From Promethearchaeota archaeon (GTDB lineage: Archaea > Asgardarchaeota > Lokiarchaeia > Sigyniarchaeales > SOKP01): a stretch of 64,000 bases of DNA. The stretch lies in contig JAEOTA010000081.1 in NCBI GenBank assembly GCA_016840085.1, forward strand, positions 1-64,000, given 5' to 3'. A program made the position numbers and the translations under genes. Shown piece after piece: positions 51,423 through 64,000 of the stretch (the first letter of the stretch is position 1; the number at the start of each line of letters is the position of its first letter). The notes beneath the pieces were generated by a model that saw only the letters and a program-made list of their open reading frames with translations, made no database searches and was not told the DNA's origin.

Positions 51423-51854
51423 CTATTTGTTATTGCTTAAAAATGAACTTAAATCCATGATATCATCGCCTCTTTTAACTTGGATCTTGCTTTTAATTCC
51501 TTTAATTTTTCGTTCTAGAAACATAATAGCATCAAGCGGAATTCTTCTAGGAATTCCTCCTCTTTGTCTAATAATCGCTAATAGATAGTCTATATTTTGC
51601 AGTACATCTGGACTTATCAATTCATTATATATTGCTTGGTAGACATTTGACTCTCTAACTTTTAAATTGTTCAAGTGATTGTATGCTTCAGGGGCTAATA
51701 CTACTTTTAATATAAATTCGATTTTTTCTGACATCGAAACGACTTTATCTTTTACTACATCTTGTTGCCTTTTAGCTTCCATTAATGCTTTCATTTTTCT
51801 CATGCGAATTTTTTCTAGTTCATGTTGTTCAAAGTTTCTATTAGTTTCATTCAT
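51423..51854 (-). CDS. PDCD5-like DNA-binding protein
   Basis: ELEKIRMRKM...ILKVVLAPEA...KIQVKR. Confidence 0.75.
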   Translation of the reverse strand: MNETNRNFEQHELEKIRMRKMKALMEAKRQQDVVKDKVVSMSEKIEFILKVVLAPEAYNHLNNLKVRESNVYQAIYNELISPDVLQNIDYLLAIIRQRGGIPRRIPLDAIMFLERKIKGIKSKIQVKRGDDIMDLSSFLSNNK

Positions 51855-52030
51855 TTTCTTATCTATCTCTGTTATTTTGTTCTATTAATTATAGTTTAAT
51901 TTAAGATATACATCTTGTCATTAATTTGTTAAATTAAAACTCAATAAATAAATAATGGTGGCTAAAATAATAATTTTTTGAAGAAAAATTCCTTTTTCTT
52001 CTAATAATTAAATCTTAAAATTAGTAAAAA

Positions 52031-52190
52031 TGGTCCCTCCCCCCGGAATCTAGCTAGATCTGAAGTAGATCCGTATTTCGAGCCGGGGACCGCTCGGTTT
52101 CAATTTCGGCTGACGTAACTTCATTAGCTACCAGCTTTAGTACGCGATATTATCTACAGCCGAGCACTCTGACCACTGAGTTAGGGAGGG
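52031..52190 (-). tRNA. tRNA-Tyr(GTA) with two introns, 37/38 (52099-52153) and 59/60 (52048-52076); CCA encoded
   Basis: Spliced 76-nt cloverleaf: CCCTCCC/GGGAGGG-A-CCA, ACTC/GAGT, CTCGG-CTGTAGA-CCGAG, CCCGG-CTCGAAT-CCGGG. Confidence 0.9.
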
Positions 52191-52472
52191 GATGTGTTTT
52201 AAAATTATATAATAATTTAATTAATTTATTTTTTATGATTTTCAATTTAGAGTAAATAATAACAAGAATTATTTTATTCTATACTTTTTTTAATACTCAT
52301 AAATAACCCTCTTTTGTTTAAGAAAACTTATTAAACAAAAAATTTTCCTATATTATTAACATAAAAATTTCCAATAAAAGATCGCAAAATACTTTTGTTG
52401 TGAAAAATTTAATTAATTAATGAATAGTTTTATAAAATTAAACTAATATTTTTTTAAGAAAGGTGATGAATA

Positions 52473-53012
52473 ATTAGAGAAGAGACTGATTATACAGAAT
52501 CTATTGAGAGTTATAAAAACGATCCAAACGTTATTCTAGAACCATGGGGTAGAAGTATAGATCATTTACGATTAACCATTATTGGTAAAAAAGGAACACC
52601 TTATGCTGATGGAAAGTTCGTTTTTGAAATCAAGTTCCCTGAGAACTACCCGTTCGCTCCGCCCTACGCTTACGCAGTTACTTTAATGTGGCACCCTAAC
52701 ATTGATTCATCTATTCCACCAGGGAAATTGAATATATGTTTAGATTTAATTAATCCAGATTTAGTAGGTAAAGTTGATGCGAGTACAGGAGCAAGCGGAT
52801 GGACACCTTCAAAAACTCTAACTAATATTATTGAAGCACTGAAGGGCATGATGCATATAGAGTTATGTGAATATCTCGCATAACGTGTAAAGCCGCCCTT
52901 CTTTAATCCTGGCGATCCCCTTAATCATGAAGCAGGTGAACAGTATTTTCGTGCTTTAAAGAAATTTGAAGCTAAAGCTAAAAGCTGGACAGCCAAATAT
53001 GCCATCGACTAG
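52473..53012 (+). CDS. Ubiquitin-conjugating enzyme E2, split by a BHB intron (52861-52890); probable ATT/ATA start; about 169 aa spliced
   Basis: GTPYADGKF...FPENYPFAPP...WHPNID...NICLDLI...WTP...; after the insert, EPPFFNPGDPLNHEAG...KAKSWTAKYA. Confidence 0.9.
52861..52890 (+). other. Putative 30-nt BHB intron in E2 mRNA
   Basis: GC-AUAU-AG^A-GUUAUG...CAUAAC-GUGU-AA^A-GC; contains an in-frame TAA at 52881. Confidence 0.85.
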
Positions 53013-53084
53013 AGGAATTTAACTATCTTTTATTTCCTATTTTTATTTTTTATGTTTTAATTTATTTGGTTTAAGAAATTCAAA

Positions 53085-53119
53085 CTCATATTTCATAGAT
53101 TAGCTCATATCTCATAGAT
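53085..53119. repeat. Direct repeat CTCATAT(T/C)TCATAGAT x2, period 19 bp, upstream of the Fe-S gene
   Basis: Seen in sequence. Confidence 0.55.
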
Positions 53120-53210
53120 CACCTGTTATTATTAATAACCCAATTTCTTTAAATTGTTAATCCAAATATTTATTATAACGATTTGATTAAAGCAAATAAT
53201 TAATTAAAAA

Positions 53211-54092
53211 GTGGATTTATTGCTAAAAAAATCGACAGGGTTAAGATCTAAGGTTATAAAGATGGATAAATTTGATATCTCTTCTTTTACAGATATTTTA
53301 GCTGATAAGGCTGGAAAAATAATTCCAGAAATTTTCAAGGGTGTACAAAAAGCAAGAAGAGATTATAAAAATGAAATTAAAATACTTCCAGATGAGATTA
53401 AATATGCATCTGCAGAGTTATGGGAAGAGATTATTGGAAAAGCAATATCATTGGGAATAGATTTAATAGGATTTGCTCCTATTGATGAGAATTTAATTTT
53501 TGAGAATGATTATGTTGGTGGAATCGAAATGTTATATGAAAACGGAATTGTATTAGGTATGGAAATGAATTATGATGCAATAAATACTGCACCTAAACCC
53601 CCAGCAGGTTTAGAATCATTAAGAATTTATGCGGAATTAGGTAATGCTACGAATAAATTAGTTGATTTTATTCGTTCAAAAGGATATAAAGCAATTGCTT
53701 GTCATCCTTTAGGTGGTCCTATACTTTATCCCGCAATGGCAGTTAAAGCAAAATTAGGAAAAATAGGAAAGCAGGGTCTTTTAATCACAAAAAAGTATGG
53801 TCCCCGGCAAAGGTTATCTATTATTGCAATAAATGCTACTCCCCTTCCTGAAAATCAATGTGAAGATTTTGAAATTTCTGAGTTTTGTGAGAGATGTAGA
53901 AGATGCATTCATTTTTGCCCTGTTAATGCAATTTTTGAAGATCCTCTTGTCAAAAAAAATGGAACAATAACCCGAATCGATAGCAACAAATGTTTTGAGT
54001 ATTTTTACGAAACTACTGGTTGTTCAGTATGTATTGAAACATGTCCCTTTCATAAAATTGGTTCTGAAGTACTTTATTATAGACAGCTATAA
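53211..54092 (+). CDS. QueG / reductive-dehalogenase-like Fe-S protein
   Basis: AKLGKIGKQGLLIT..YGPRQR; FCERCRRCIHFCP and GCSVCIETCPF. Confidence 0.85.
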   Translation: MDLLLKKSTGLRSKVIKMDKFDISSFTDILADKAGKIIPEIFKGVQKARRDYKNEIKILPDEIKYASAELWEEIIGKAISLGIDLIGFAPIDENLIFENDYVGGIEMLYENGIVLGMEMNYDAINTAPKPPAGLESLRIYAELGNATNKLVDFIRSKGYKAIACHPLGGPILYPAMAVKAKLGKIGKQGLLITKKYGPRQRLSIIAINATPLPENQCEDFEISEFCERCRRCIHFCPVNAIFEDPLVKKNGTITRIDSNKCFEYFYETTGCSVCIETCPFHKIGSEVLYYRQL

Positions 54093-54126
54093 CAAATTCC
54101 CTAAATTATATTTAAATTAAGTAAAC

Positions 54127-54747
54127 ATGCGAAATATTTCTTTTAAAGATAAGAAAGTAATCATTTTTGATTTAGATGGGACTATTGTATACTTAAAAGC
54201 GGATTGGATATCTTTGAAAAGAAAACTAGTTGAAAAATATAATAAGCTTTATGATGATTATTGCAATTTTGATAGCGTGTCTGTATGTCTTAGTAAAATA
54301 GTAGAAAGAGAAGATGAAAAAGCGCTTGCAGATTTCATTAAAATTATTCGCCAGTATGAACTTGAAAATATCGAAGAAAACAAACCAATTAAAGAGTCAA
54401 TTTTTTTTATTAATAATAAAGAGTTATTTGGTATAGAAGAAAAGAGTAAATTCGTAATTTTGTCTCTTAATACAAGAAGTACTATAATCAAATCATTAAA
54501 ATTAGCGAAAATATTCAAAAAAATTGATTTTATAGTAGGAAGAGAGGATGTCCGAAAATGGAAACCAGATCCAGAAGGAATTTTTAAAATAAAAGCTCAT
54601 TATAATTTGAGAAATGAAGAAATGATTTATTTTGGGGATTTGGAAAAAGACATGATAACTGGGAAAAATGCTGGTATTGAAGCTTACTATATAGATGATT
54701 TAATTAATCTTGTTAATAAAAAGAAGTCTGGATTAAAAACTATCTAA
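54127..54747 (+). CDS. HAD-superfamily hydrolase
   Basis: IFDLDGT, KPDPEG and GD...D motifs. Confidence 0.9.
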   Translation: MRNISFKDKKVIIFDLDGTIVYLKADWISLKRKLVEKYNKLYDDYCNFDSVSVCLSKIVEREDEKALADFIKIIRQYELENIEENKPIKESIFFINNKELFGIEEKSKFVILSLNTRSTIIKSLKLAKIFKKIDFIVGREDVRKWKPDPEGIFKIKAHYNLRNEEMIYFGDLEKDMITGKNAGIEAYYIDDLINLVNKKKSGLKTI

Positions 54748-54767
54748 ATTTGTTCCATAATAAGTTA

Positions 54768-55367
54768 TTAGATTTTCATAAAGGTAAAGACTTCATCCTT
54801 TTTTTCAATATATTTGAACAAACCATAATTAGTTACTTTTGTAATAATTTGATCGTCCTTTAGATGATGGTCATCAACTGATAACCATCCATTATCTTTT
54901 AAAACTCGATACAATTCTCTTAAAATATTTTCTGGATCTGATAAGTGATGAAAAATATCCAATAAAAGAACTACATCAACGGTATTATCTTCTAGTTTTG
55001 TATTACATTCAGTTAGAATTGTTTCAATATTACAAAGTCCTCTTTTTTCTGCTCTTTTTTTGACATCTTCAATAGCTAAAGGATGAATATCAGCTGCATA
55101 TACTTTTCCTGTCTTACCAACTGCCTCTGCTGCGGCAATAGTATAACTCCCTGGACCACATCCATAATCTAATACAAAATTTCCTTTTTTTATTTTAGTT
55201 TTTTCTATTTTTAGATTTGGTGGATAGTTTTTATCACGTTTTTCAAAATGTTTAATCATAAATTTAAAATGAGTTTTGCTCATGGGTTTATCTTTTTCCC
55301 TTTTTTCTGGAATTACTAACACCCCTATTTTAAATATTAATATAAGAATAAAAAAATGGAATTTCAC
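54768..55367 (-). CDS. Class I SAM-dependent methyltransferase (true start probably downstream of 55367)
   Basis: VLDYGCGPG and RVLK..G motifs. Confidence 0.9.
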   Translation of the reverse strand: MKFHFFILILIFKIGVLVIPEKREKDKPMSKTHFKFMIKHFEKRDKNYPPNLKIEKTKIKKGNFVLDYGCGPGSYTIAAAEAVGKTGKVYAADIHPLAIEDVKKRAEKRGLCNIETILTECNTKLEDNTVDVVLLLDIFHHLSDPENILRELYRVLKDNGWLSVDDHHLKDDQIITKVTNYGLFKYIEKKDEVFTFMKI

Positions 55368-56977
55368 ATAAAAGTGATTATAACATTATATTTTTTAATC
55401 TCTGATTCTGCTAGTGCTTTTCCCAAAGGAGTTAACATAATTATATCATTTGATTTTATTTTTACTGAAGTTAACTTAATATCAGGATCTTTTAGTGAAG
55501 GCATGTACGGATTCCAATAAATCTCTTTAGTCATTGGATTAGTAATCATCCAAAATTCTGGATCTAGTTTGTGTCCTGAAACTTCCATTGCGTTAAATAT
55601 ATAACCAATATCAGCGTCAAAAGGCACTACAATTTGTACATTTTCTTCACCTTCAATCTTTCCACATGCTAAACAATCATCTCTTTTTATGATGTTTAGA
55701 TGATCAAATTGACCGTAAATGCCATTGTAATTCACATAGGGAGGATCCATCGGAGATCCAATATTTCTGCTGTTAACTCGAAATAATAGTTTGAGTGCTT
55801 CTTGAGATTGGATACTTGCAATTACGGAACTAACTGTTTGGATTGCTGCTATTTTATTTCCGAGAATATTTTCCATTTCTTCAAATTTGTAATCTGGACC
55901 AAAAGTGTTTCTGATATTATTTTTCCATTCTTCAATCTCTGCTTCAGTTAATGTATCTCTTTTCTCTGGAGATACATTTTCATTAAATACTCGCTCTCTT
56001 AATTGTTCTAACTCCTCTTGAGCTAATTCTTTTAGTTTAAGAACGTCAACATTTAAATTAAGATCAGGTTTATGTCCATATTTTTTTTCAAAATTAACTT
56101 CAGCTTTTATAACACAATGATTTCTATTACGGGGTAACCCTTTTAACGTGCACGCTGCAACTAATTTATCGTCAGCTGGAGGAATTGGAACTAAGCATCT
56201 ATAACATGGAGTTTGATCTAAAAGTTCGGGGGCATATTTCCAATCAAAAACCATTTCAATCTCTCTTCTGAATTTTTCTTTTAATGGATTAATTTTTTCT
56301 TCATTTAACCGTTCTATTTCTTCTTCTAGGTCTTCAATTCTTTTCTGGGCTTGAAAATATTCAGGGTATTCCATTTCAGTAATTTCCCAAAGTCTTGCTT
56401 CTACTAAATTATCGATCTCTCTTTCTTTATCTTTATATTGTAAACCAGAACCCTCAGGGATTACAATTTGAACATGACCTTCAAAAGCATGTGTAGCTCC
56501 TTCGACCATAGGTTTTTTTAGTCTAAGACAGATTTTATTTAAGTCCAATCTAGCATTAAAATTATCTAATGCTCCTATAACTACATCTGCTTCTTCATAT
56601 ACAGCCATAGGTAATTTTTGAAGCTTTTCAAAATAAAAATCAACTTTTAGAAAAAGATTCATTTCTTTCAATCGTTCTGCTGCCACTTCAGCTTTAGGTC
56701 GTCCCTCATCTCCCGGTTTAAATAGCATTTGTCTAGATAAATTTGAGGTTTCAATAGTATCTAAATCCACTAAGATCAGTTTACCTATACCCATCAGAGC
56801 GAAATCTTTTGCGATTTCACAGCCCTTCACGAAAATTATTGTTTATAATATTCCTAATGCGCCTACTCCGATGATTAAAATACATCCCTTATTTATAACA
56901 TCTTGATCCCAGCCATCAATTAATTGTTGTCGGGCATACATGCGCGACTTAACAAAATCTTCTACTTTTTCAGTCAT
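55364..56977 (-). CDS. Ubiquitin-like activating enzyme E1 (Uba3/Uba2-like), split by a BHB intron (56825-56854); 527 aa spliced
   Basis: Exon 1 MTEKVEDFVKSRMYARQQLIDGWDQDVINKGCILIIGVGAL joins GCEIAKD; D..E.SNLSRQ, ALDN..AR, PCYRC, catalytic ACTLKGLPRNRNHC and CLACG motifs. Confidence 0.92.
56825..56854 (-). other. Putative 30-nt BHB intron in E1 mRNA
   Basis: GGC-GCAU-UA^G-GAAUAUUAU...AUAAUUUUC-GUGA-AG^G-GCU; contains an in-frame TAA. Confidence 0.85.
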
Positions 56978-57110
56978 TTTTAATGCCTTTATTTGTGGGT
57001 ATTATAATAATATTATTTTTTCATCAGAATTTAAACTCTTTTAGTTAATTTTAGAGATAGGTTATTTTTAATTTCCCTTTATGAAATCAAAATTCTATTC
57101 TTTATTTTAA

Positions 57111-58307
57111 CTATGAAATCGTAATAGAATATGGGTGTAACCCTACACCCTCTATCCCATCTGCCAATATGGCTTTTGGGACTGCTTTTTTAAGGATATT
57201 ATATGCACCATTTACATCCGCATTGATAATAATCCCTTCTTGACTGTGATATAAACCCCTACAAATACGCTTTCCTTGAAATTTTTCATGTTTTTTTATA
57301 GATTCATTATCTAAGAAACTACATCTCGAAGTGAAAGATTCTGGCTCTAATATAACATCAATCTCGATTAACTCTGATTTATATTTAATTTGGGACATAA
57401 ATTTGGAAAAAGGAATTTGGACAAAGTTTTGGTTATTACGCTTTCCAATTTTTATTTTATGTTTCCAAGATTTATTATAACCAATGACTATCGTTCCAAA
57501 ATTGTGGTTAATGCAATAATTTATCACTGCTCTCGAAATTTTATGGAAGATATCATTAATTTTATTGTTTCTTTTCCGGGTTAGCCATTGCATTCTTTTT
57601 GTTTCAGAACCGATCCCTTGCTTATCCTTTTTGCTTTTATATCTAGCAAGTTGTTTGTTGTAGAATTGATTAATAGATTTCACAACACCACCTTTAATAA
57701 CAACAGGTTGTAACCCCGCATTATTTACCATAGTTATGATATTGTTCAACCCCAAATCAATCCCAATAACTCTCTTTTTATCTAAATTCAAATTTTTTAC
57801 TTCCTTTTTATAAATAATTTCTAAGATATAATATAATCCTTTTGGAATAATTCTGACGTGGTGTAATTTACTTTTTATACGGGTTTTAACGGGAGGTAAT
57901 TGAGTTTTTTTCGGGAAATAAAGAAAAGCTCCCTTGATCATGCATTGTTGATTCGTAAAAATAATCATACACTCGCCATCTTTCTTTTTGTAACGTGGCG
58001 GTTTTGGAGATCCTAAGTAATTCTCTGGCTGCTTTTTGTGGTTTTTAAGAGATTGGAAAAATGATTTCCAATTTTTATCCACGAGTTTTAAAATTTGCTG
58101 AGCAGTTTGTGAAGGGAGCTTTTTATATGGTTCTTTCTCTTTTAGCATATACCATAAGTCGTAATATCTCAACCAATTACCTAAATAAAAAAACTCTTGT
58201 CTCACATAATAATTGGCAAGATTATAGAGATTTTTAGATAAATGACATAGATAAGATAATTGTGGAGTGTTCTTTAATTGAATCTGTTCTGTTAACCTCA
58301 TTTCCAT
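57111..58307 (-). mobile_element. tnpB: IS200/IS605-family TnpB without tnpA (IS1341-like)
   Basis: SKNLYN.ANY, LPSQTAQQ, GIDLG, IGYN..WK, ESFTSRCS and NADVNGAYNI motifs; terminal hairpin GGGTGTA/TACACCC. Confidence 0.92.
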
Positions 58308-58485: not shown

Positions 58486-61400
58486 TTAAGTTTTTTTACT
58501 TTTATCAGCTTTTTTAATCATTTTTTTAAGATTATCAATTTCTTCCCTTTCTTTAGCTTGTTTTAATCTTTTTTGTTCTTTCTTCTTTTCCATTTCCTTT
58601 TTCTCAATCTCATCTATAAGTTCTTGTTTAATTTTAATCAAATCACTCATTTTCTTACTGAATTCTTTTGCTTCATCTTTGATTTGTTCTTTTTGCTTTT
58701 TTTCTTTTAATTTTGCTTTACTCCGTCCCTCTTCAATCATTTTCATAACTTTATCTGTATCAATACTAACTTCACTAATTGCTTGTTTCATTTCGGCATC
58801 TTTAGATTCTCTTCTACTTTTTTCTAAGGACCTTTGTTTTTCTAATTGCTTTTGAATTTCATTAATTCGTGATTCCTCGGCTTTAACTCTTTCTTCCAAA
58901 ATCTTAGCATTTTTTATTTCGGTTTCAATATATTTTATCTCTTCTTTCCATCCAATTTCTTTAAATTTAGAAATAGCTGTATTGAACTTTTCATAAGCAT
59001 TTTCAAAATCATGATACGCTGCTAATCTCTTTCCATCATCAATATATTTTAATCCTTCATCTCTAATTTGATCAAAATGTTTCTTTTTAACAAATAATTC
59101 TCTATATTGTTTTTCTTGTCCACGCTTCAGTTGTTCTTGTTCCAATCTTTTCCTTCTTACCTCTTCTTGAAACTTTTCATATTCTATTTGTCTTTGTATT
59201 CGAGCCTCTTCCTCTAACTTCTTCTTTTTAATATAATTAACTTGTTCTTGTTGTAAATCTTTGATTAATGCATTTAAATTATTTATTTCTGGTTCCCATC
59301 CTATATTTTCAGCTAAAATATTTCTTGCTTGGACATATAAAGAAATTGCATTATTAAAATCTGGATTAAGTTGTTTCAAGTATTTTCCGGCTTCGTCGAG
59401 CAAAGAATAAGCAGATTCCCTGACAGTCATTTGTTCTTGAATCATTCTTTCCCTTTGTTTTTGAGCTAATAATTGTGCTCTTTTCTTTTCTTCTTCTTGC
59501 CTTTTTCTTTCATCTATAAGAATTTTTAATGCTTTTTCTTCTTCTAATTTCTCAAATTCTTTCTGAAATTTTAATTCTTCTTGTTCTACTTCTTGCTTCT
59601 TTAATTTATTAACCTTAAGAATCATATTATTAATAGAATCTGTTGGAAACTGTAATTCATTCAAGATTAATCCTGCTTTTCTATATCTTTCAATAGCGTT
59701 TTCATAATTCGATGCTTTTAGAAATTTCTCTGCATCATCAAGGATTTTAAATGCAGATTCTTTCCTCTTCTCAAGTCTAGCTTTCAATTCTTCTTTCTCC
59801 TGGATCTCGATTTGCTTATTCTGTAATCTTTCTCTTTCGTTTTTAAAAAAAGTAGATATTTGTTCTTCAAACTCCCACACCTCTCTTTCTCTCTGTATAC
59901 TGAGTTCTAAATCCTTTTGTCTTTGTAATTGATGGTCTTTTTTCTTCTCTCGGACTTTTTGAATTGTTTCTCTAATTGCTTCTGTTGGGAATGAAATTTC
60001 GTTTAAAATTAATTCTGCTGTATGATAATATTCAAGTGCTTTATTATATCGCGCTTGATTCATATATATCTCTGCTTCATCTAGTATACTAAAAGCCTCA
60101 TCTTTTCTCTTTTCCATATAAGCACGATGCTTTTTTTGTTTTTCAAGTTCATTCTGCTGACTCTTCATTCTCAATTCATTAATTTTTATGCTTTCAGCTA
60201 TTTTTTGTTGAAAATCAAATTGTTCACGCTCTTTCTGAAGTTTAGATTCTAACTCCATTTGCTTTGTAGTTATTTCTTCCCTACTTTTCATTTGAACCTT
60301 ATAAATCATATCTCTAATCAAATTTGTTGGAAATCCTATTTCACTTAAAATTAATTCTGCTTTATGATACATTTCAGTTGCTTTATCATATTCAGCTTGC
60401 TTTAACAACTTTTCAGCAAGATCCATAATCTCAAAGGCTTCTATTTTACGTGATTCCATTTTCTGTAATAAATTTTCGCGTTCTTGTATTTTTAATTCTT
60501 TTAATTCTAATCTTTTCTTTTCTCTTAACATACTTTCAGAGATCTTTGATTGAAATTGTTGTTGTTCTTGTTGTTGGTTAATCTTCAATTCTTGTTCTAT
60601 TTCTTTTTGTTTTTCTAAATCTCTCTTTCTCTTTTCAATTGTATTTATCGTATTAGTTAATAACTTCAGATATTCACGGGTCCAACCTATTTCAGTTAAT
60701 ATATGAATCGCATGTTGATAACTTACTAATGCATTATCAAAATCTTTGTGTTTAACTGATTCATACCCATTATTAATTAAATTAAAAGCTTCTTGTTGCT
60801 TGACTAAATTTTGAGCACTTATGAGTTTTTGACTTTTTAAATTTTCTTCTTCTTCTATTGCCATTGCTCTTTCTTTCTTTCTGTATAATTTTATTTGTTC
60901 CATAAACTCATAATTCGCTTTTTCCTTATCTATTGATTCTTGTAGTAATTTTGCCTTTTGTATATCATCTTCTCTCTTTTTTTTCATGATATTCTGAATT
61001 GCATTTTCAAGAATGGGTATTTCATCGTCCCATTGAATTTGGGCAAAATTGTTTGCAACATCTCGATATATATCAATTGACTCTTCAAATCTTCCTTTCG
61101 AGAGTAAATCTTGAGCTTTATCCAATAATTTAAAACCCTCTTCTCTTTTTTTCTCTCTATATACTAATTCTTCTTCTTTTTTTCTTAATTTTATCTCTCT
61201 TTGTCTTAATTTTTCACGTTGAGTTTTCATTTCTTCTGATATAAGTTCATGAAATAATTTTTCTTCCTTTTCTCGCTCAAGACTTGCTTTTAATTCCATC
61301 TGTTTTTTAACTTCCATCTTATATTTTTTATTCTCAACCTCATTAATAGATCTTTGAATTAAATCAATTTCATCATGCCATTGAATCTCTGTAAAAATAT

Positions 61401-64000
61401 CCGTAGCGTTATAGTATACTGTGATTGCTTTATCAAAATCATTTTGTTCAATATGTTTTTGTGCTTCTTCTAAAAGTTTGAAAGCTTCTTCTTTTCTCTT
61501 TTCAGTTATTAATCTAATTTCTTCCAGTTTTCTCAGTTCCTCTTGTTTTTCTTTCATTTTAAGCTGTTCTAATTTCATTTTTTCTGTTATCTGTTGTTGG
61601 AATAGGCGCTCTTCTTGTTCTCTTCTAAGATTTAATTCGAGTTCTTTTAATTTATTCAAATCATCATCTCTCTTTTTCTCCTGGATTTTTTGAATCATTT
61701 CTCTGATAATAGTTGTAGGAAAAAAAATTTCATTGAAAATTAATTCTGAATTACGATAAAGTTCAATTGATTTATCATATTCACTTTGATTTAATAACTC
61801 TTCAGCTTGATCCATAATCTCAAATGCTTCTATTTTACGTTTTTTCATTTTTTGTAACAAATCTTCACGTTTTTGAACTTCAATTACCTTAGAGTTTAAT
61901 CTTTCTTTCTCTTTTCGTATATAGTTTGAAATTTTATTTTGAAATTGTTCCTCTTCTTTTTGACGGTTTAATGCAGCTTCAAATTCTATCTGCTTTACCT
62001 TTTCCTTTCTTTCTTTGCTTTCTTGAATAGATTGAATTGTGTCTTTTAGTAATTTTAAATAATCTTCTCGCCACCCTATTCCTTTTAAGATATTTATTGC
62101 ATTTTCATAATTTTCTATAGCTTTCGCGAAGTTTTCTTCTTTGAGAATATTTTCGGCTTCTTCAATAATATTAAATGCTCTTTCTTGTTCAACTAAATTT
62201 TGGGCTGAAATTTTTTTCTGTTTTTCAAGTATTTTTTGCTCTTTTAATGCTTCTACTTTTTCTCTTTCTCTTTGAAGTAGAATCTTGTTCATAAAAGCTT
62301 TATCAACAGTTTCTTTTTCAATTGCCTTTTGTAATAATTTTTGTTTATAGAGTTCATTCTCTCTCTTTTTCTCTTTTATATCCTCTATTGTAGTTTGAAT
62401 AATTGGAATTTCTTCTGTCCATTGAATTTGAGCAAAGATATTGGCTACATCATAATATATTTCAAGAGTATTATCAAACTTTCCAAAAGAAAGGAAATTT
62501 TGAGCTTTTTCTAGCAAATCAAATGCTTCATTCTTTTTATTTGCTTGATAGGCTCTTAAATTCTCTTTTTCACTTAATGCAATTTCCTTTTCTTTCAATC
62601 TTTCACGTTGAGCTTTCATTTCTCTAGTGATGAGCTCTTGAAACCTTTTTTCTTCCTTTTCATGCTCAAAATCAGCTTGAATTTTCAATTGTTTTTGTAA
62701 TTCGGCCTCTTTTTTCTGATTTTCAATTTCTATAATAGAATTTTGAATTAAGCTTATTTCGTTTTGCCAATTCGCATCTGCAAAAAAATTGATAGCATAT
62801 TGCAATATTTCAATAGCTTTATCAAAATAACCTTGTTTTAAATTATCCTGTGATTCCTCTAATAATTTAAAACCTGATTTTCTTCTTTCTTCACGATATT
62901 GTAATTCTTTTTCCCGTCCTCTTAATTCAATTTCTTGTTTTTTCAGTTTTTCTCTTTCTTGTTTTAAATATTTTGTAATTTGCTTTTGAAAATCTTCTTC
63001 TTTTTTTTCTCTTTCTAAAGTTTCTTGCATCTTTTTTTGTCTTAAAATCTTTTGATCACGTTTTAGTTCTTCAACTTGATGTATAGAATTTTCAATCAAA
63101 GGAATTTCCTCAGTCCATCGTATTTCAGCAAAAATATTGCCTGCATTTTGGTACTCCTCGATTGCATTATTATATTCACCTCTTTTAACGAAACTTAATG
63201 CTGAATCTAGAAATTCAAAAGCCTTTTTCCTCCGCTCCTTAAAATATTTTACTTCTTCCTCCTTTTCCTTTAATATGATCTCTTTTTTCTTTAAATGTTC
63301 ACGCTCTTTATTTAATTGAGTAGCAATTTGCTTCTGAAAATCAATTTCAGCTTCTTCCCTTTTTTCCAAACGTTTTTGGTCTTCATATTGCTTCTTGAGT
63401 CGAGAATCTTTTATCTTCTCTATATTTAATATTGTATTCTTAATTGTATTAATGTAAGTTTCCCACCCTGTTCCTAAATCTTCAAGAATTACCAACCCTT
63501 CTTTATATTCATTGATAGCTCTTTCAAAGTTTTTTTCTTTTAAAATTTCATCTGCTTTATCTAAAATTTTAAAGAGATCCTTCTCTTTTTCTGCATAATC
63601 TCTTTTTTTTAATTCAAATTCTTCCCTTTTATTCTCTAAATCTTTAGCAGATTCTATTGCTTGCTTCATTTCCTTTAAATAAATAGATTCTTGAACTCTA
63701 AATAATTCTCTTTCTCGTTTTTCTTTAAGACCCTCAGTTTTTTTCTCTCTTTCTTGTTTTTCCTTTATCCCATTTATTAAATTAATCACTGGTTGAATAT
63801 AAGAATCCCATTCTATTGATTTGAGGAGCTGAATCGCTTCTTCAAGTTTCTCGATTGCGTGATTATAATCTTTTTCTCTTTCAAACTTCTTTCCTATATC
63901 AATTAAATTGAAAGCTTTTATTTGTACTTGCTCTTCTATTCTCTTCTTTTCTTCAAACTCAATAAGTTTTTTTCTTTGTAAATCTGCTTCTGAAGTTAAA
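58486..64000 (-). CDS. Giant repeat protein (more than 1830 aa; 5' end outside the window) built from TPR/MIT-like helical units and coiled coils
   Basis: Frame is open to the window edge; recurring unit of about 115 aa, AF.LL..A......F..AI..Y..A..IF.EI.W. Confidence 0.85.
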   Translation of the reverse strand, partial: LTSEADLQRKKLIEFEEKKRIEEQVQIKAFNLIDIGKKFEREKDYNHAIEKLEEAIQLLKSIEWDSYIQPVINLINGIKEKQEREKKTEGLKEKRERELFRVQESIYLKEMKQAIESAKDLENKREEFELKKRDYAEKEKDLFKILDKADEILKEKNFERAINEYKEGLVILEDLGTGWETYINTIKNTILNIEKIKDSRLKKQYEDQKRLEKREEAEIDFQKQIATQLNKEREHLKKKEIILKEKEEEVKYFKERRKKAFEFLDSALSFVKRGEYNNAIEEYQNAGNIFAEIRWTEEIPLIENSIHQVEELKRDQKILRQKKMQETLEREKKEEDFQKQITKYLKQEREKLKKQEIELRGREKELQYREERRKSGFKLLEESQDNLKQGYFDKAIEILQYAINFFADANWQNEISLIQNSIIEIENQKKEAELQKQLKIQADFEHEKEEKRFQELITREMKAQRERLKEKEIALSEKENLRAYQANKKNEAFDLLEKAQNFLSFGKFDNTLEIYYDVANIFAQIQWTEEIPIIQTTIEDIKEKKRENELYKQKLLQKAIEKETVDKAFMNKILLQREREKVEALKEQKILEKQKKISAQNLVEQERAFNIIEEAENILKEENFAKAIENYENAINILKGIGWREDYLKLLKDTIQSIQESKERKEKVKQIEFEAALNRQKEEEQFQNKISNYIRKEKERLNSKVIEVQKREDLLQKMKKRKIEAFEIMDQAEELLNQSEYDKSIELYRNSELIFNEIFFPTTIIREMIQKIQEKKRDDDLNKLKELELNLRREQEERLFQQQITEKMKLEQLKMKEKQEELRKLEEIRLITEKRKEEAFKLLEEAQKHIEQNDFDKAITVYYNATDIFTEIQWHDEIDLIQRSINEVENKKYKMEVKKQMELKASLEREKEEKLFHELISEEMKTQREKLRQREIKLRKKEEELVYREKKREEGFKLLDKAQDLLSKGRFEESIDIYRDVANNFAQIQWDDEIPILENAIQNIMKKKREDDIQKAKLLQESIDKEKANYEFMEQIKLYRKKERAMAIEEEENLKSQKLISAQNLVKQQEAFNLINNGYESVKHKDFDNALVSYQHAIHILTEIGWTREYLKLLTNTINTIEKRKRDLEKQKEIEQELKINQQQEQQQFQSKISESMLREKKRLELKELKIQERENLLQKMESRKIEAFEIMDLAEKLLKQAEYDKATEMYHKAELILSEIGFPTNLIRDMIYKVQMKSREEITTKQMELESKLQKEREQFDFQQKIAESIKINELRMKSQQNELEKQKKHRAYMEKRKDEAFSILDEAEIYMNQARYNKALEYYHTAELILNEISFPTEAIRETIQKVREKKKDHQLQRQKDLELSIQREREVWEFEEQISTFFKNERERLQNKQIEIQEKEELKARLEKRKESAFKILDDAEKFLKASNYENAIERYRKAGLILNELQFPTDSINNMILKVNKLKKQEVEQEELKFQKEFEKLEEEKALKILIDERKRQEEEKKRAQLLAQKQRERMIQEQMTVRESAYSLLDEAGKYLKQLNPDFNNAISLYVQARNILAENIGWEPEINNLNALIKDLQQEQVNYIKKKKLEEEARIQRQIEYEKFQEEVRRKRLEQEQLKRGQEKQYRELFVKKKHFDQIRDEGLKYIDDGKRLAAYHDFENAYEKFNTAISKFKEIGWKEEIKYIETEIKNAKILEERVKAEESRINEIQKQLEKQRSLEKSRRESKDAEMKQAISEVSIDTDKVMKMIEEGRSKAKLKEKKQKEQIKDEAKEFSKKMSDLIKIKQELIDEIEKKEMEKKKEQKRLKQAKEREEIDNLKKMIKKADKSKKT

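What the first reader, a model, noticed from the sequence alone, without database searches (positions are those of the whole stretch)
52861..52890. tRNA-type (BHB) intron inside the mRNA of a ubiquitin-conjugating E2
Seen: the E2 frame hits TAA at 52881, yet the typical E2 C-terminus (PFFNPGDPLNHEA...AKSWTAKYA) resumes in the same frame right after. The intervening sequence forms a full bulge-helix-bulge: outer GC/GC, central AUAU/GUGU, two 3-nt bulges AGA and AAA, inner hairpin GUUAUG/CAUAAC. Established: the archaeal splicing endonuclease EndA cuts after the second nucleotide of each bulge and RtcB ligates. Applying that rule removes 52861-52890 and gives ATA G|AG CCG = MHIEPPFFNP with no stop. 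Inference: this is a spliced protein-coding gene. The best-known archaeal mRNA intron precedent is cbf5 in Crenarchaeota.
Basis: partly seen in the sequence, partly recalled or inferred. Interest (0 to 1): 0.95.

Follow-up and report, generated by a model that had tools for sequence, protein, structure and literature searches.

The report
tRNA-type intron splitting Asgard E2 gene
The ubiquitin-conjugating (E2) gene of this Loki-type Asgard archaeon is interrupted by a 30-base intron of the kind normally cut out of tRNAs; in the papers I could search, an intron like this inside an archaeal coding sequence is documented for only one gene family (cbf5).

Summary
Confirmed. Bases 52861-52890 are a 30-nt insert with an in-frame TAA. 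Removing them at the EndA cut sites gives a 169-aa E2 colinear with 48 intron-less orthologs. Thirteen other distinct inserts (29, 30 or 32 nt) sit at the same nucleotide in other Promethearchaeota. All break the frame, all end in an AA^A bulge, and the intron half of the central helix tracks changes in the exon half. This is very probably a spliced bulge-helix-bulge (BHB) mRNA intron (about 95%); I found no RNA evidence for this genome. Relatives carry similar inserts at 7 more sites of this gene. This genome has others in E1, rps3 and more genes, the same size (about 30 nt) as its tRNA introns. Carriers are not a clade and flanks look co-converted, so lateral spread is likely; a GIY-YIG-like gene adjoins E2 in some carriers but not here. 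Caveats: the catalytic EndA subunit lies in an apparent assembly gap, and the BHB fold is 3.4 kcal/mol above the predicted optimum. A regulatory ubiquitin 'gate' is not supported. The scan has noted such introns before, including in E2 genes of other Loki genomes.

The parts
52462..52466 (+). GGTGA ribosome-binding site
   Evidence: sequence; present before the gene in all 30 genus loci
52473..52860 (+). E2 exon 1; probable ATT start; HPN motif and catalytic Cys (52737-9)
   Evidence: Pfam UQ_con E=7e-21, profile positions 17-108 of 140; ATT/ATC at this place in the genus loci; database proteins start here
52841..52847 (+). 5' arm of 7-bp exon-exon outer helix
   Evidence: 90% of cells paired across 10 carriers
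52853..52858 (+). exon side of h (2 bp) and of central helix H (AUAU, 52855-8)
52859..52861 (+). 5' bulge AG^A; predicted cut after 52860
   Evidence: EndA rule (PMC2738675) agrees with the ortholog-defined boundary
52861..52890 (+). 30-nt BHB intron: 9-bp hairpin 52862-84, in-frame TAA 52881-3, intron side of H (GUGU) 52885-8
52889..52891 (+). 3' bulge AA^A; predicted cut after 52890
   Evidence: AA^A in 14 of 14 distinct same-site introns
52891..53012 (+). E2 exon 2 (last 39 codons and TAG); holds 3' arms of h (52892-3) and of the outer helix (52895-901)
   Evidence: completes the UQ_con profile to 139 of 140; 97% identical to the closest relative G024
56825..56854 (-). separate 30-nt BHB-like intron with TAA in the neighbouring E1 (ThiF) gene, splitting the GxGxxG motif; E1 exons 56977-56855 and 56824-55364
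   Evidence: absent in 26 genus orthologs, present in G024, G033, G018

Best explanation
A short, probably selfish archaeal BHB intron inside the E2 coding sequence, removed routinely by the tRNA-splicing machinery. The pre-mRNA folds exon and intron into helix-bulge-helix-bulge-helix (motif shown; selection on it shown by covariation). The (alpha-beta)2 EndA cuts after the second base of each bulge and RtcB joins the exons, giving the 169-aa E2 (inferred from established chemistry). Unspliced RNA would give a 136-aa fragment lacking the C-terminal quarter of the fold. The intron comes and goes among Lokiarchaeia (patchiness shown). It most likely moves at DNA level with about 30 nt of flank, at times helped by a neighbouring GIY-YIG-like nuclease that is later lost (inferred, about 55%). 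Odds that it is a spliced BHB intron at all: about 95%.
For: 48 intron-less orthologs define exactly this boundary. 14 distinct same-site inserts of 29, 30 or 32 nt, all frame-breaking, H 4/4 in 12; two bacterial chance hits to the same pattern have H 2/4. Central helix: 38 of 40 cells paired, with two-sided changes CG6/UA3/UG1 and AU5/GC5. Gene-wide: 22 inserts at 8 sites, 13 meet H>=3 and h'>=3, against 0 of 264 shifted positions. Exon 2 stays conserved in carriers. RtcB and EndA beta are in the genome; all 5 relatives tested have alpha and beta. The genome's tRNAs carry inserts of about 30 nt. Mobility: carriers rejected as a clade, p-AU 3e-86, 7-8 changes; intron 26/30 identical to that of L143, whose synonymous codons match only 40% away from the site but 8/10 near it; 7 of the 10 codons around the site differ from intron-less sister G024, mostly towards carrier alleles; GIY-YIG-like ORF or remnant beside E2 in 3 same-site carrier lineages and in none of the intron-free E2 loci searched.
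Against: No transcript evidence was obtained here. The catalytic EndA alpha gene is not in this assembly; the whole conserved block around it, A-ATPase genes included, is also missing, so a gap is likely. The BHB is not the predicted optimal fold. The GIY-YIG-like gene is absent from this genome and from most carriers, and is named from motifs only, with no Pfam or PHROG hit. Donor-like flanks could reflect selection for the outer helix, and repeated loss could explain part of the patchiness. Carriers are kin, so counts overstate independence.
Confidence: 0.84

Rival explanations
1. The intron is spliced and is a selected regulatory gate that couples ubiquitin-system output (E1 and E2) to tRNA-splicing activity.
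For: Both E1 and E2 carry a stop-containing 30-nt intron, against about 1% of genes in the census. The weak central helix could make splicing conditional.
Against: The two introns do not travel together: G024, G033 and G018 have only the E1 intron, and carrier L144 has an intact 525-aa E1. Most species have neither. Unrelated genes are hit too (rps3, a small GTPase and others). E2 and E1 are at the 97th and 81st percentile of conservation, which suits a mobile element.
Confidence: 0.09
2. A disabling insertion; the gene is a pseudogene or makes a truncated E2.
For: In-frame stop; relatives have a second E2 paralog, probably in a gap at the C13 edge here; the BHB is not the optimal fold.
Against: Exon 2 is conserved in all carriers; 14 different inserts at one nucleotide with covarying helices cannot be random damage.
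Confidence: 0.04
3. Translational recoding (stop read-through or ribosomal bypass) rather than splicing.
For: This copy is a multiple of three with one stop and a hairpin.
Against: Same-site inserts of 29 and 32 nt need different frame changes; boundaries follow the EndA rule; no ortholog tolerates 10 extra residues here.
Confidence: 0.02
4. Assembly artefact.
For: Metagenome-assembled genome with 7.6% contamination; this exact allele was not found in another assembly.
Against: Homologous inserts occur in many independent assemblies; the insert is single-copy in the genome and not a duplication of its flanks.
Confidence: 0.01

Closest known systems
cbf5 pre-mRNA BHB intron of Desulfurococcales/Sulfolobales (Watanabe 2002; Yokobori 2009, PMC2738675)
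   Same: Short intron in a coding sequence, BHB-like junction, cuts between the second and third bulge base, host group with an (alpha-beta)2 EndA, present in some lineages and not others.
   Different: cbf5 has one site in one gene and its splicing is shown. Here: an Asgard host, 8 sites in one 169-codon gene across relatives, several genes per genome, a narrow 29-32 nt size class, signs of recent lateral spread; splicing not shown here.
Haloferax HVO_1309 5' UTR BHB intron (Schwarz 2020, PMC7714728)
   Same: mRNA substrate of the splicing endonuclease.
   Different: It lies in an untranslated region; the paper names cbf5 as the only other archaeal mRNA case.
Asgard non-canonical tRNA introns (bioRxiv 10.64898/2026.10.13.758758)
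   Same: [quoted passage not shown]
   Different: That study covers tRNA genes only ('mRNA' occurs 0 times) and found no general route of arrival.
Collaborative homing of a free-standing endonuclease with an ORF-less intron (phage S-PM2 F-CphI; from my own knowledge, papers listed)
   Same: ORF-less intron in a conserved gene with a nuclease-like gene next door in some carriers.
   Different: Those are group I ribozymes in phages; here the intron needs protein enzymes, and no nuclease gene is present in this genome.
HAC1/XBP1 unconventional mRNA splicing (own knowledge)
   Same: A short intron cut by a protein nuclease and joined by a tRNA ligase.
   Different: Cut by Ire1 at stem-loops and regulated; nothing here shows regulation or homology.

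Membership tests
Archaeal BHB (EndA/RtcB) intron | 4-bp central helix between exon and intron | tested here: met
   4/4 pairs (two G-U); 38 of 40 cells paired across carriers with two-sided changes
Archaeal BHB (EndA/RtcB) intron | two 3-nt bulges on opposite strands, flanked by h and h' | tested here: met
   AGA and AAA; h' 9 bp; h 2 bp plus a 7-bp outer helix; not the predicted optimal fold
Archaeal BHB (EndA/RtcB) intron | cuts after the second bulge base restore the host sequence | tested here: met
   product colinear with 48 orthologs; same rule fits 13 other same-site inserts
Archaeal BHB (EndA/RtcB) intron | host encodes RtcB | tested here: met
   C83:46555-47862, E=1e-166
Archaeal BHB (EndA/RtcB) intron | host encodes a catalytic EndA | tested here: inconclusive
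   only the beta-like paralog found; alpha and its conserved neighbourhood are missing from the assembly; 5 of 5 relatives have both
Archaeal BHB (EndA/RtcB) intron | spliced RNA or excised intron observed | not testable with these tools
   no reads available; no contig with these exons joined was obtained
UBC-fold E2 (PF00179) | profile match with HPN motif and catalytic Cys | tested here: met
Group I / group II self-splicing intron | ribozyme core of some hundreds of nt | tested here: not met
   30 nt; no Rfam match in 51800-57200
Collaborative homing cassette | endonuclease gene beside the intron-bearing allele | tested here: not met
   none beside this gene and no homolog in this assembly; present in L054 and L147/L209, remnant in L057
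Collaborative homing cassette | nuclease cuts the intron-less allele and spares the intron allele | not testable with these tools
   needs a cleavage assay

The most novel reading that the evidence does not exclude
Lokiarchaeia carry a population of mobile introns of about 30 nt, spliced by the tRNA machinery, that have spread from being a tRNA feature into many conserved protein genes (up to four in one E2 copy) and move between lineages by nuclease-assisted gene conversion. This would be a routine, spliceosome-independent mRNA splicing regime in close archaeal relatives of eukaryotes, with a testable route of intron gain.
Probability: 0.55. Interest if true: 0.85.

Novelty: new variant of a known kind. 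Interest (0 to 1): 0.72.

Why it matters
The papers I could search confirm archaeal coding-sequence splicing only for cbf5. If these inserts are spliced, Asgard archaea already process many mRNAs with the tRNA endonuclease and ligase, here in a eukaryote-type ubiquitin enzyme. That bears on how interrupted genes were handled before the spliceosome. It also makes the open question of how BHB introns arrive directly testable, because close relatives differ by single introns with traceable flanks. In practice, such genes are annotated as truncated E2s (136-146 aa database entries), which distorts Asgard gene inventories.

Tried and rejected
Motif-only genome scans for BHB plus joined ORFs were no better than control geometries and missed this intron under one filter, so no count rests on them. 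Exact look-ups of the unspliced product found nothing. The spliced protein has no reference and could not be looked up, so I have no RNA-derived contig; L243 proved to be a different strain at 81-87% identity, not a spliced copy. The intron consensus has no match in viral contigs and no second copy in the genome. L053, L213 and L215 are chance pattern hits. The G022 'split' E2 is a scaffold gap. ARAGORN scoring of tRNA deletions returned no scores, so Rfam alignments were used. The four LAGLIDADG hits lie elsewhere in the genome and were not followed up. No PDB hit at E<1e-22 (strict threshold). 375 kb aligned to G024 showed no other clear intron difference. Ten paper searches found no report of Asgard mRNA BHB introns; the library lacks most subscription papers.

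Full report
Observation. The E2 frame starts at a probable ATT (52473) behind GGTGA, reaches TAA at 52881-3 and resumes in frame to TAG at 53010-2. Deleting 52861-52890 gives a 169-aa protein. The junction forms h (2 bp), H (AUAU/GUGU), bulges AGA and AAA, and a 9-bp intron stem; a 7-bp exon-exon helix (52841-47 with 52895-901) encloses it. Shuffled inserts reach a 4/4 helix with a 9-bp stem in 4 of 200,000 trials. One caveat: the predicted optimum slips H by two bases, and the BHB conformer lies 3.4 kcal/mol higher.

Host. The nearest proteins and records are named Promethearchaeota/Lokiarchaeota. The assembly is 4.68 Mb, 98.8% complete by markers, 7.6% contaminated. This is the only E2 over the Pfam cut-off in the assembly, but relatives have a second paralog whose flank maps to the very edge of contig C13, so I do not claim it is the sole E2.

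Orthologs. All 29 genus loci first fetched, three more genus copies and 16 more distant ones lack the insert and join the two exons directly. The closest relative, G024 (98% identical protein), also lacks it. No ortholog encodes the 10 codons, so this is an insertion, not a nonsense mutation.

Same-site inserts. Pattern scans and protein look-ups gave 13 further distinct inserts at the same nucleotide, 29, 30 or 32 nt long. Seven GTDB species records other than this genome carry one, and one variant occurs in six assemblies. All 14 break the frame and end in AA^A. On the 10 aligned, H pairs in 38 of 40 cells: where the exon changes at the His wobble base or the next codon's first base, the intron partner changes with it. 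Kinship inflates such counts, but slid partners score far lower (covariation 0.27 against at most 0.12). Two bacterial chance hits have H 2/4. Varying length, conserved geometry and a conserved exon 2 are what splicing predicts, and they fit neither pseudogenisation nor recoding.

A hot-spot gene. A motif-free spliced alignment of the E2 loci found 22 distinct inserts at 8 sites (near codons 57, 65, 74, 108, 127, 130, 146, 160), mostly 30 nt. Thirteen meet H>=3 with h'>=3, against 0 of 264 shifted positions; several others have H 4/4 with a bulged stem. One contig carries four, another three. The real sites were allowed a few equivalent registers, which favours them slightly.

The genome. The neighbouring E1 has its own 30-nt stop-containing insert in its GxGxxG motif (56854-56825), shared with G024, G033 and G018 and absent in 26 others. 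A motif-free comparison with about half of relative G006 (931 orthologs) found 11 frame-breaking inserts; 8 are 30-31 nt; 7 of 11 pass the BHB test against 8 of 88 shifted controls, and 0 of 5 open in-frame inserts pass. The E1/E2 region was chosen on purpose. The rest gives about 0.5-0.7% of shared genes, so my extrapolation is 10-15 genes or more, since terminal exons and shared introns are missed. Several tRNA genes carry inserts of about 30 nt.

Machinery. RtcB is present. One EndA paralog is present; by my reading it lacks the catalytic His and is the beta subunit. All five relatives tested have alpha and beta. Alpha is not in this assembly, but neither are its conserved neighbours, A-ATPase subunits included, so a gap is far likelier than loss. 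Asgard EndA is reported as (alpha-beta)2 with the L1 loop linked to broad specificity (PMC5829648).

History. On the exon tree the carriers need 7-8 changes, and monophyly is rejected with the flanks masked (p-AU 3e-86). This intron is 26/30 identical to that of L143, whose synonymous codons match at only 40% far from the site but 8/10 near it. Against G024, 7 of the 10 codons around the site differ, five towards carrier alleles. Five of six carriers then in hand rank near the top for outer-helix strength. This fits transfer with a short co-converted tract; selection for the helix and repeated loss cannot be excluded. A 464-474 aa ORF with GIY-YIG-like motifs lies tail to tail with E2 in L054 and L147/L209, with remnants in L057 and in L150 (which has introns at other sites). 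It was not found in any intron-free E2 locus searched, nor in this genome. Pfam and PHROGs do not name it. L056 (no ORF) and L147 (ORF) are close relatives with nearly the same intron, which suggests the nuclease is lost while the intron stays.

Mechanism. Shown: the insert, its motif, selection on the motif, and patchy recurrence. Inferred from established chemistry: EndA cleavage and RtcB ligation to a full E2 message. Inferred more weakly: DNA-level spread. A regulatory gate is unlikely as the main reason, because the E1 and E2 introns assort independently and unrelated genes are hit.

Literature. Ten searches found only cbf5 (PMC2738675) and a Haloferax 5' UTR case (PMC7714728). An October 2026 preprint on Asgard tRNA introns does not mention mRNA and states that none of its newly identified sequences has been shown spliced. 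The 2009 paper notes that introns in other genes had been predicted. This scan's own notes list many similar cases, including E2 introns in other Loki genomes and one claim of spliced RNA; these are unchecked leads and were not used as support.

Verdict. Observation confirmed, interpretation supported. It works like the cbf5 intron and meets the structural membership tests; splicing is untested. New variant of a known kind; interest 0.72.

Noticed in passing
window 52031-52190 (-): tRNA-Tyr(GTA)-like gene of 160 nt, divergent from E2, with an anticodon-loop intron and a T-loop insert; missed by ARAGORN and Rfam. A tRNA-Tyr is called at this place in some relatives.
   Followed up: partly
window 52473-52475: The E2 seems to start at ATT/ATC in the genus loci examined, with no ATG nearby; several more distant relatives have Met here.
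   Followed up: partly
window 56825-56854 (-): E1 intron; two registers give the same product here, but only this one keeps the invariant Leu in G033 and G018; central helix 3/4 with a compensated A-U to G-C change.
   Followed up: yes
G000 C85:142161 and 142249, C9:138240, C6:14028, C24:30582, C51:58189 and 58260: Further frame-breaking BHB-like inserts of 30-38 nt found by homology (rps3 twice, a small GTPase, others).
   Followed up: partly
G000 C19:6047 (-), C49:147258 (-): BHB candidates with four G-C pairs before the Gly-Gly of a ubiquitin-like gene and in purA; not compared with orthologs.
   Followed up: no
L149, L150 (E2 codon 127): Open in-frame 30-nt inserts with a non-canonical junction (apparent 4-nt bulge); unspliced they would add 10 residues.
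   Followed up: no
L021 (G018), downstream of E2: Unidentified 343-aa ORF tail to tail with an intron-less E2; this genome carries the E1 intron.
   Followed up: no
window 52740-52800: Long loop between the catalytic Cys and the conserved Trp, the same length in all orthologs; resembles the Cdc34/UBE2G insertion (own knowledge).
   Followed up: no
window 57111-58307 (-); 58486-63999 (-): IS605-type TnpB gene directly upstream of E1; a repetitive charged protein of over 1,767 aa runs off the window.
   Followed up: no
G000 assembly: The A-ATPase/EndA-alpha block is missing despite 98.8% marker completeness.
   Followed up: yes
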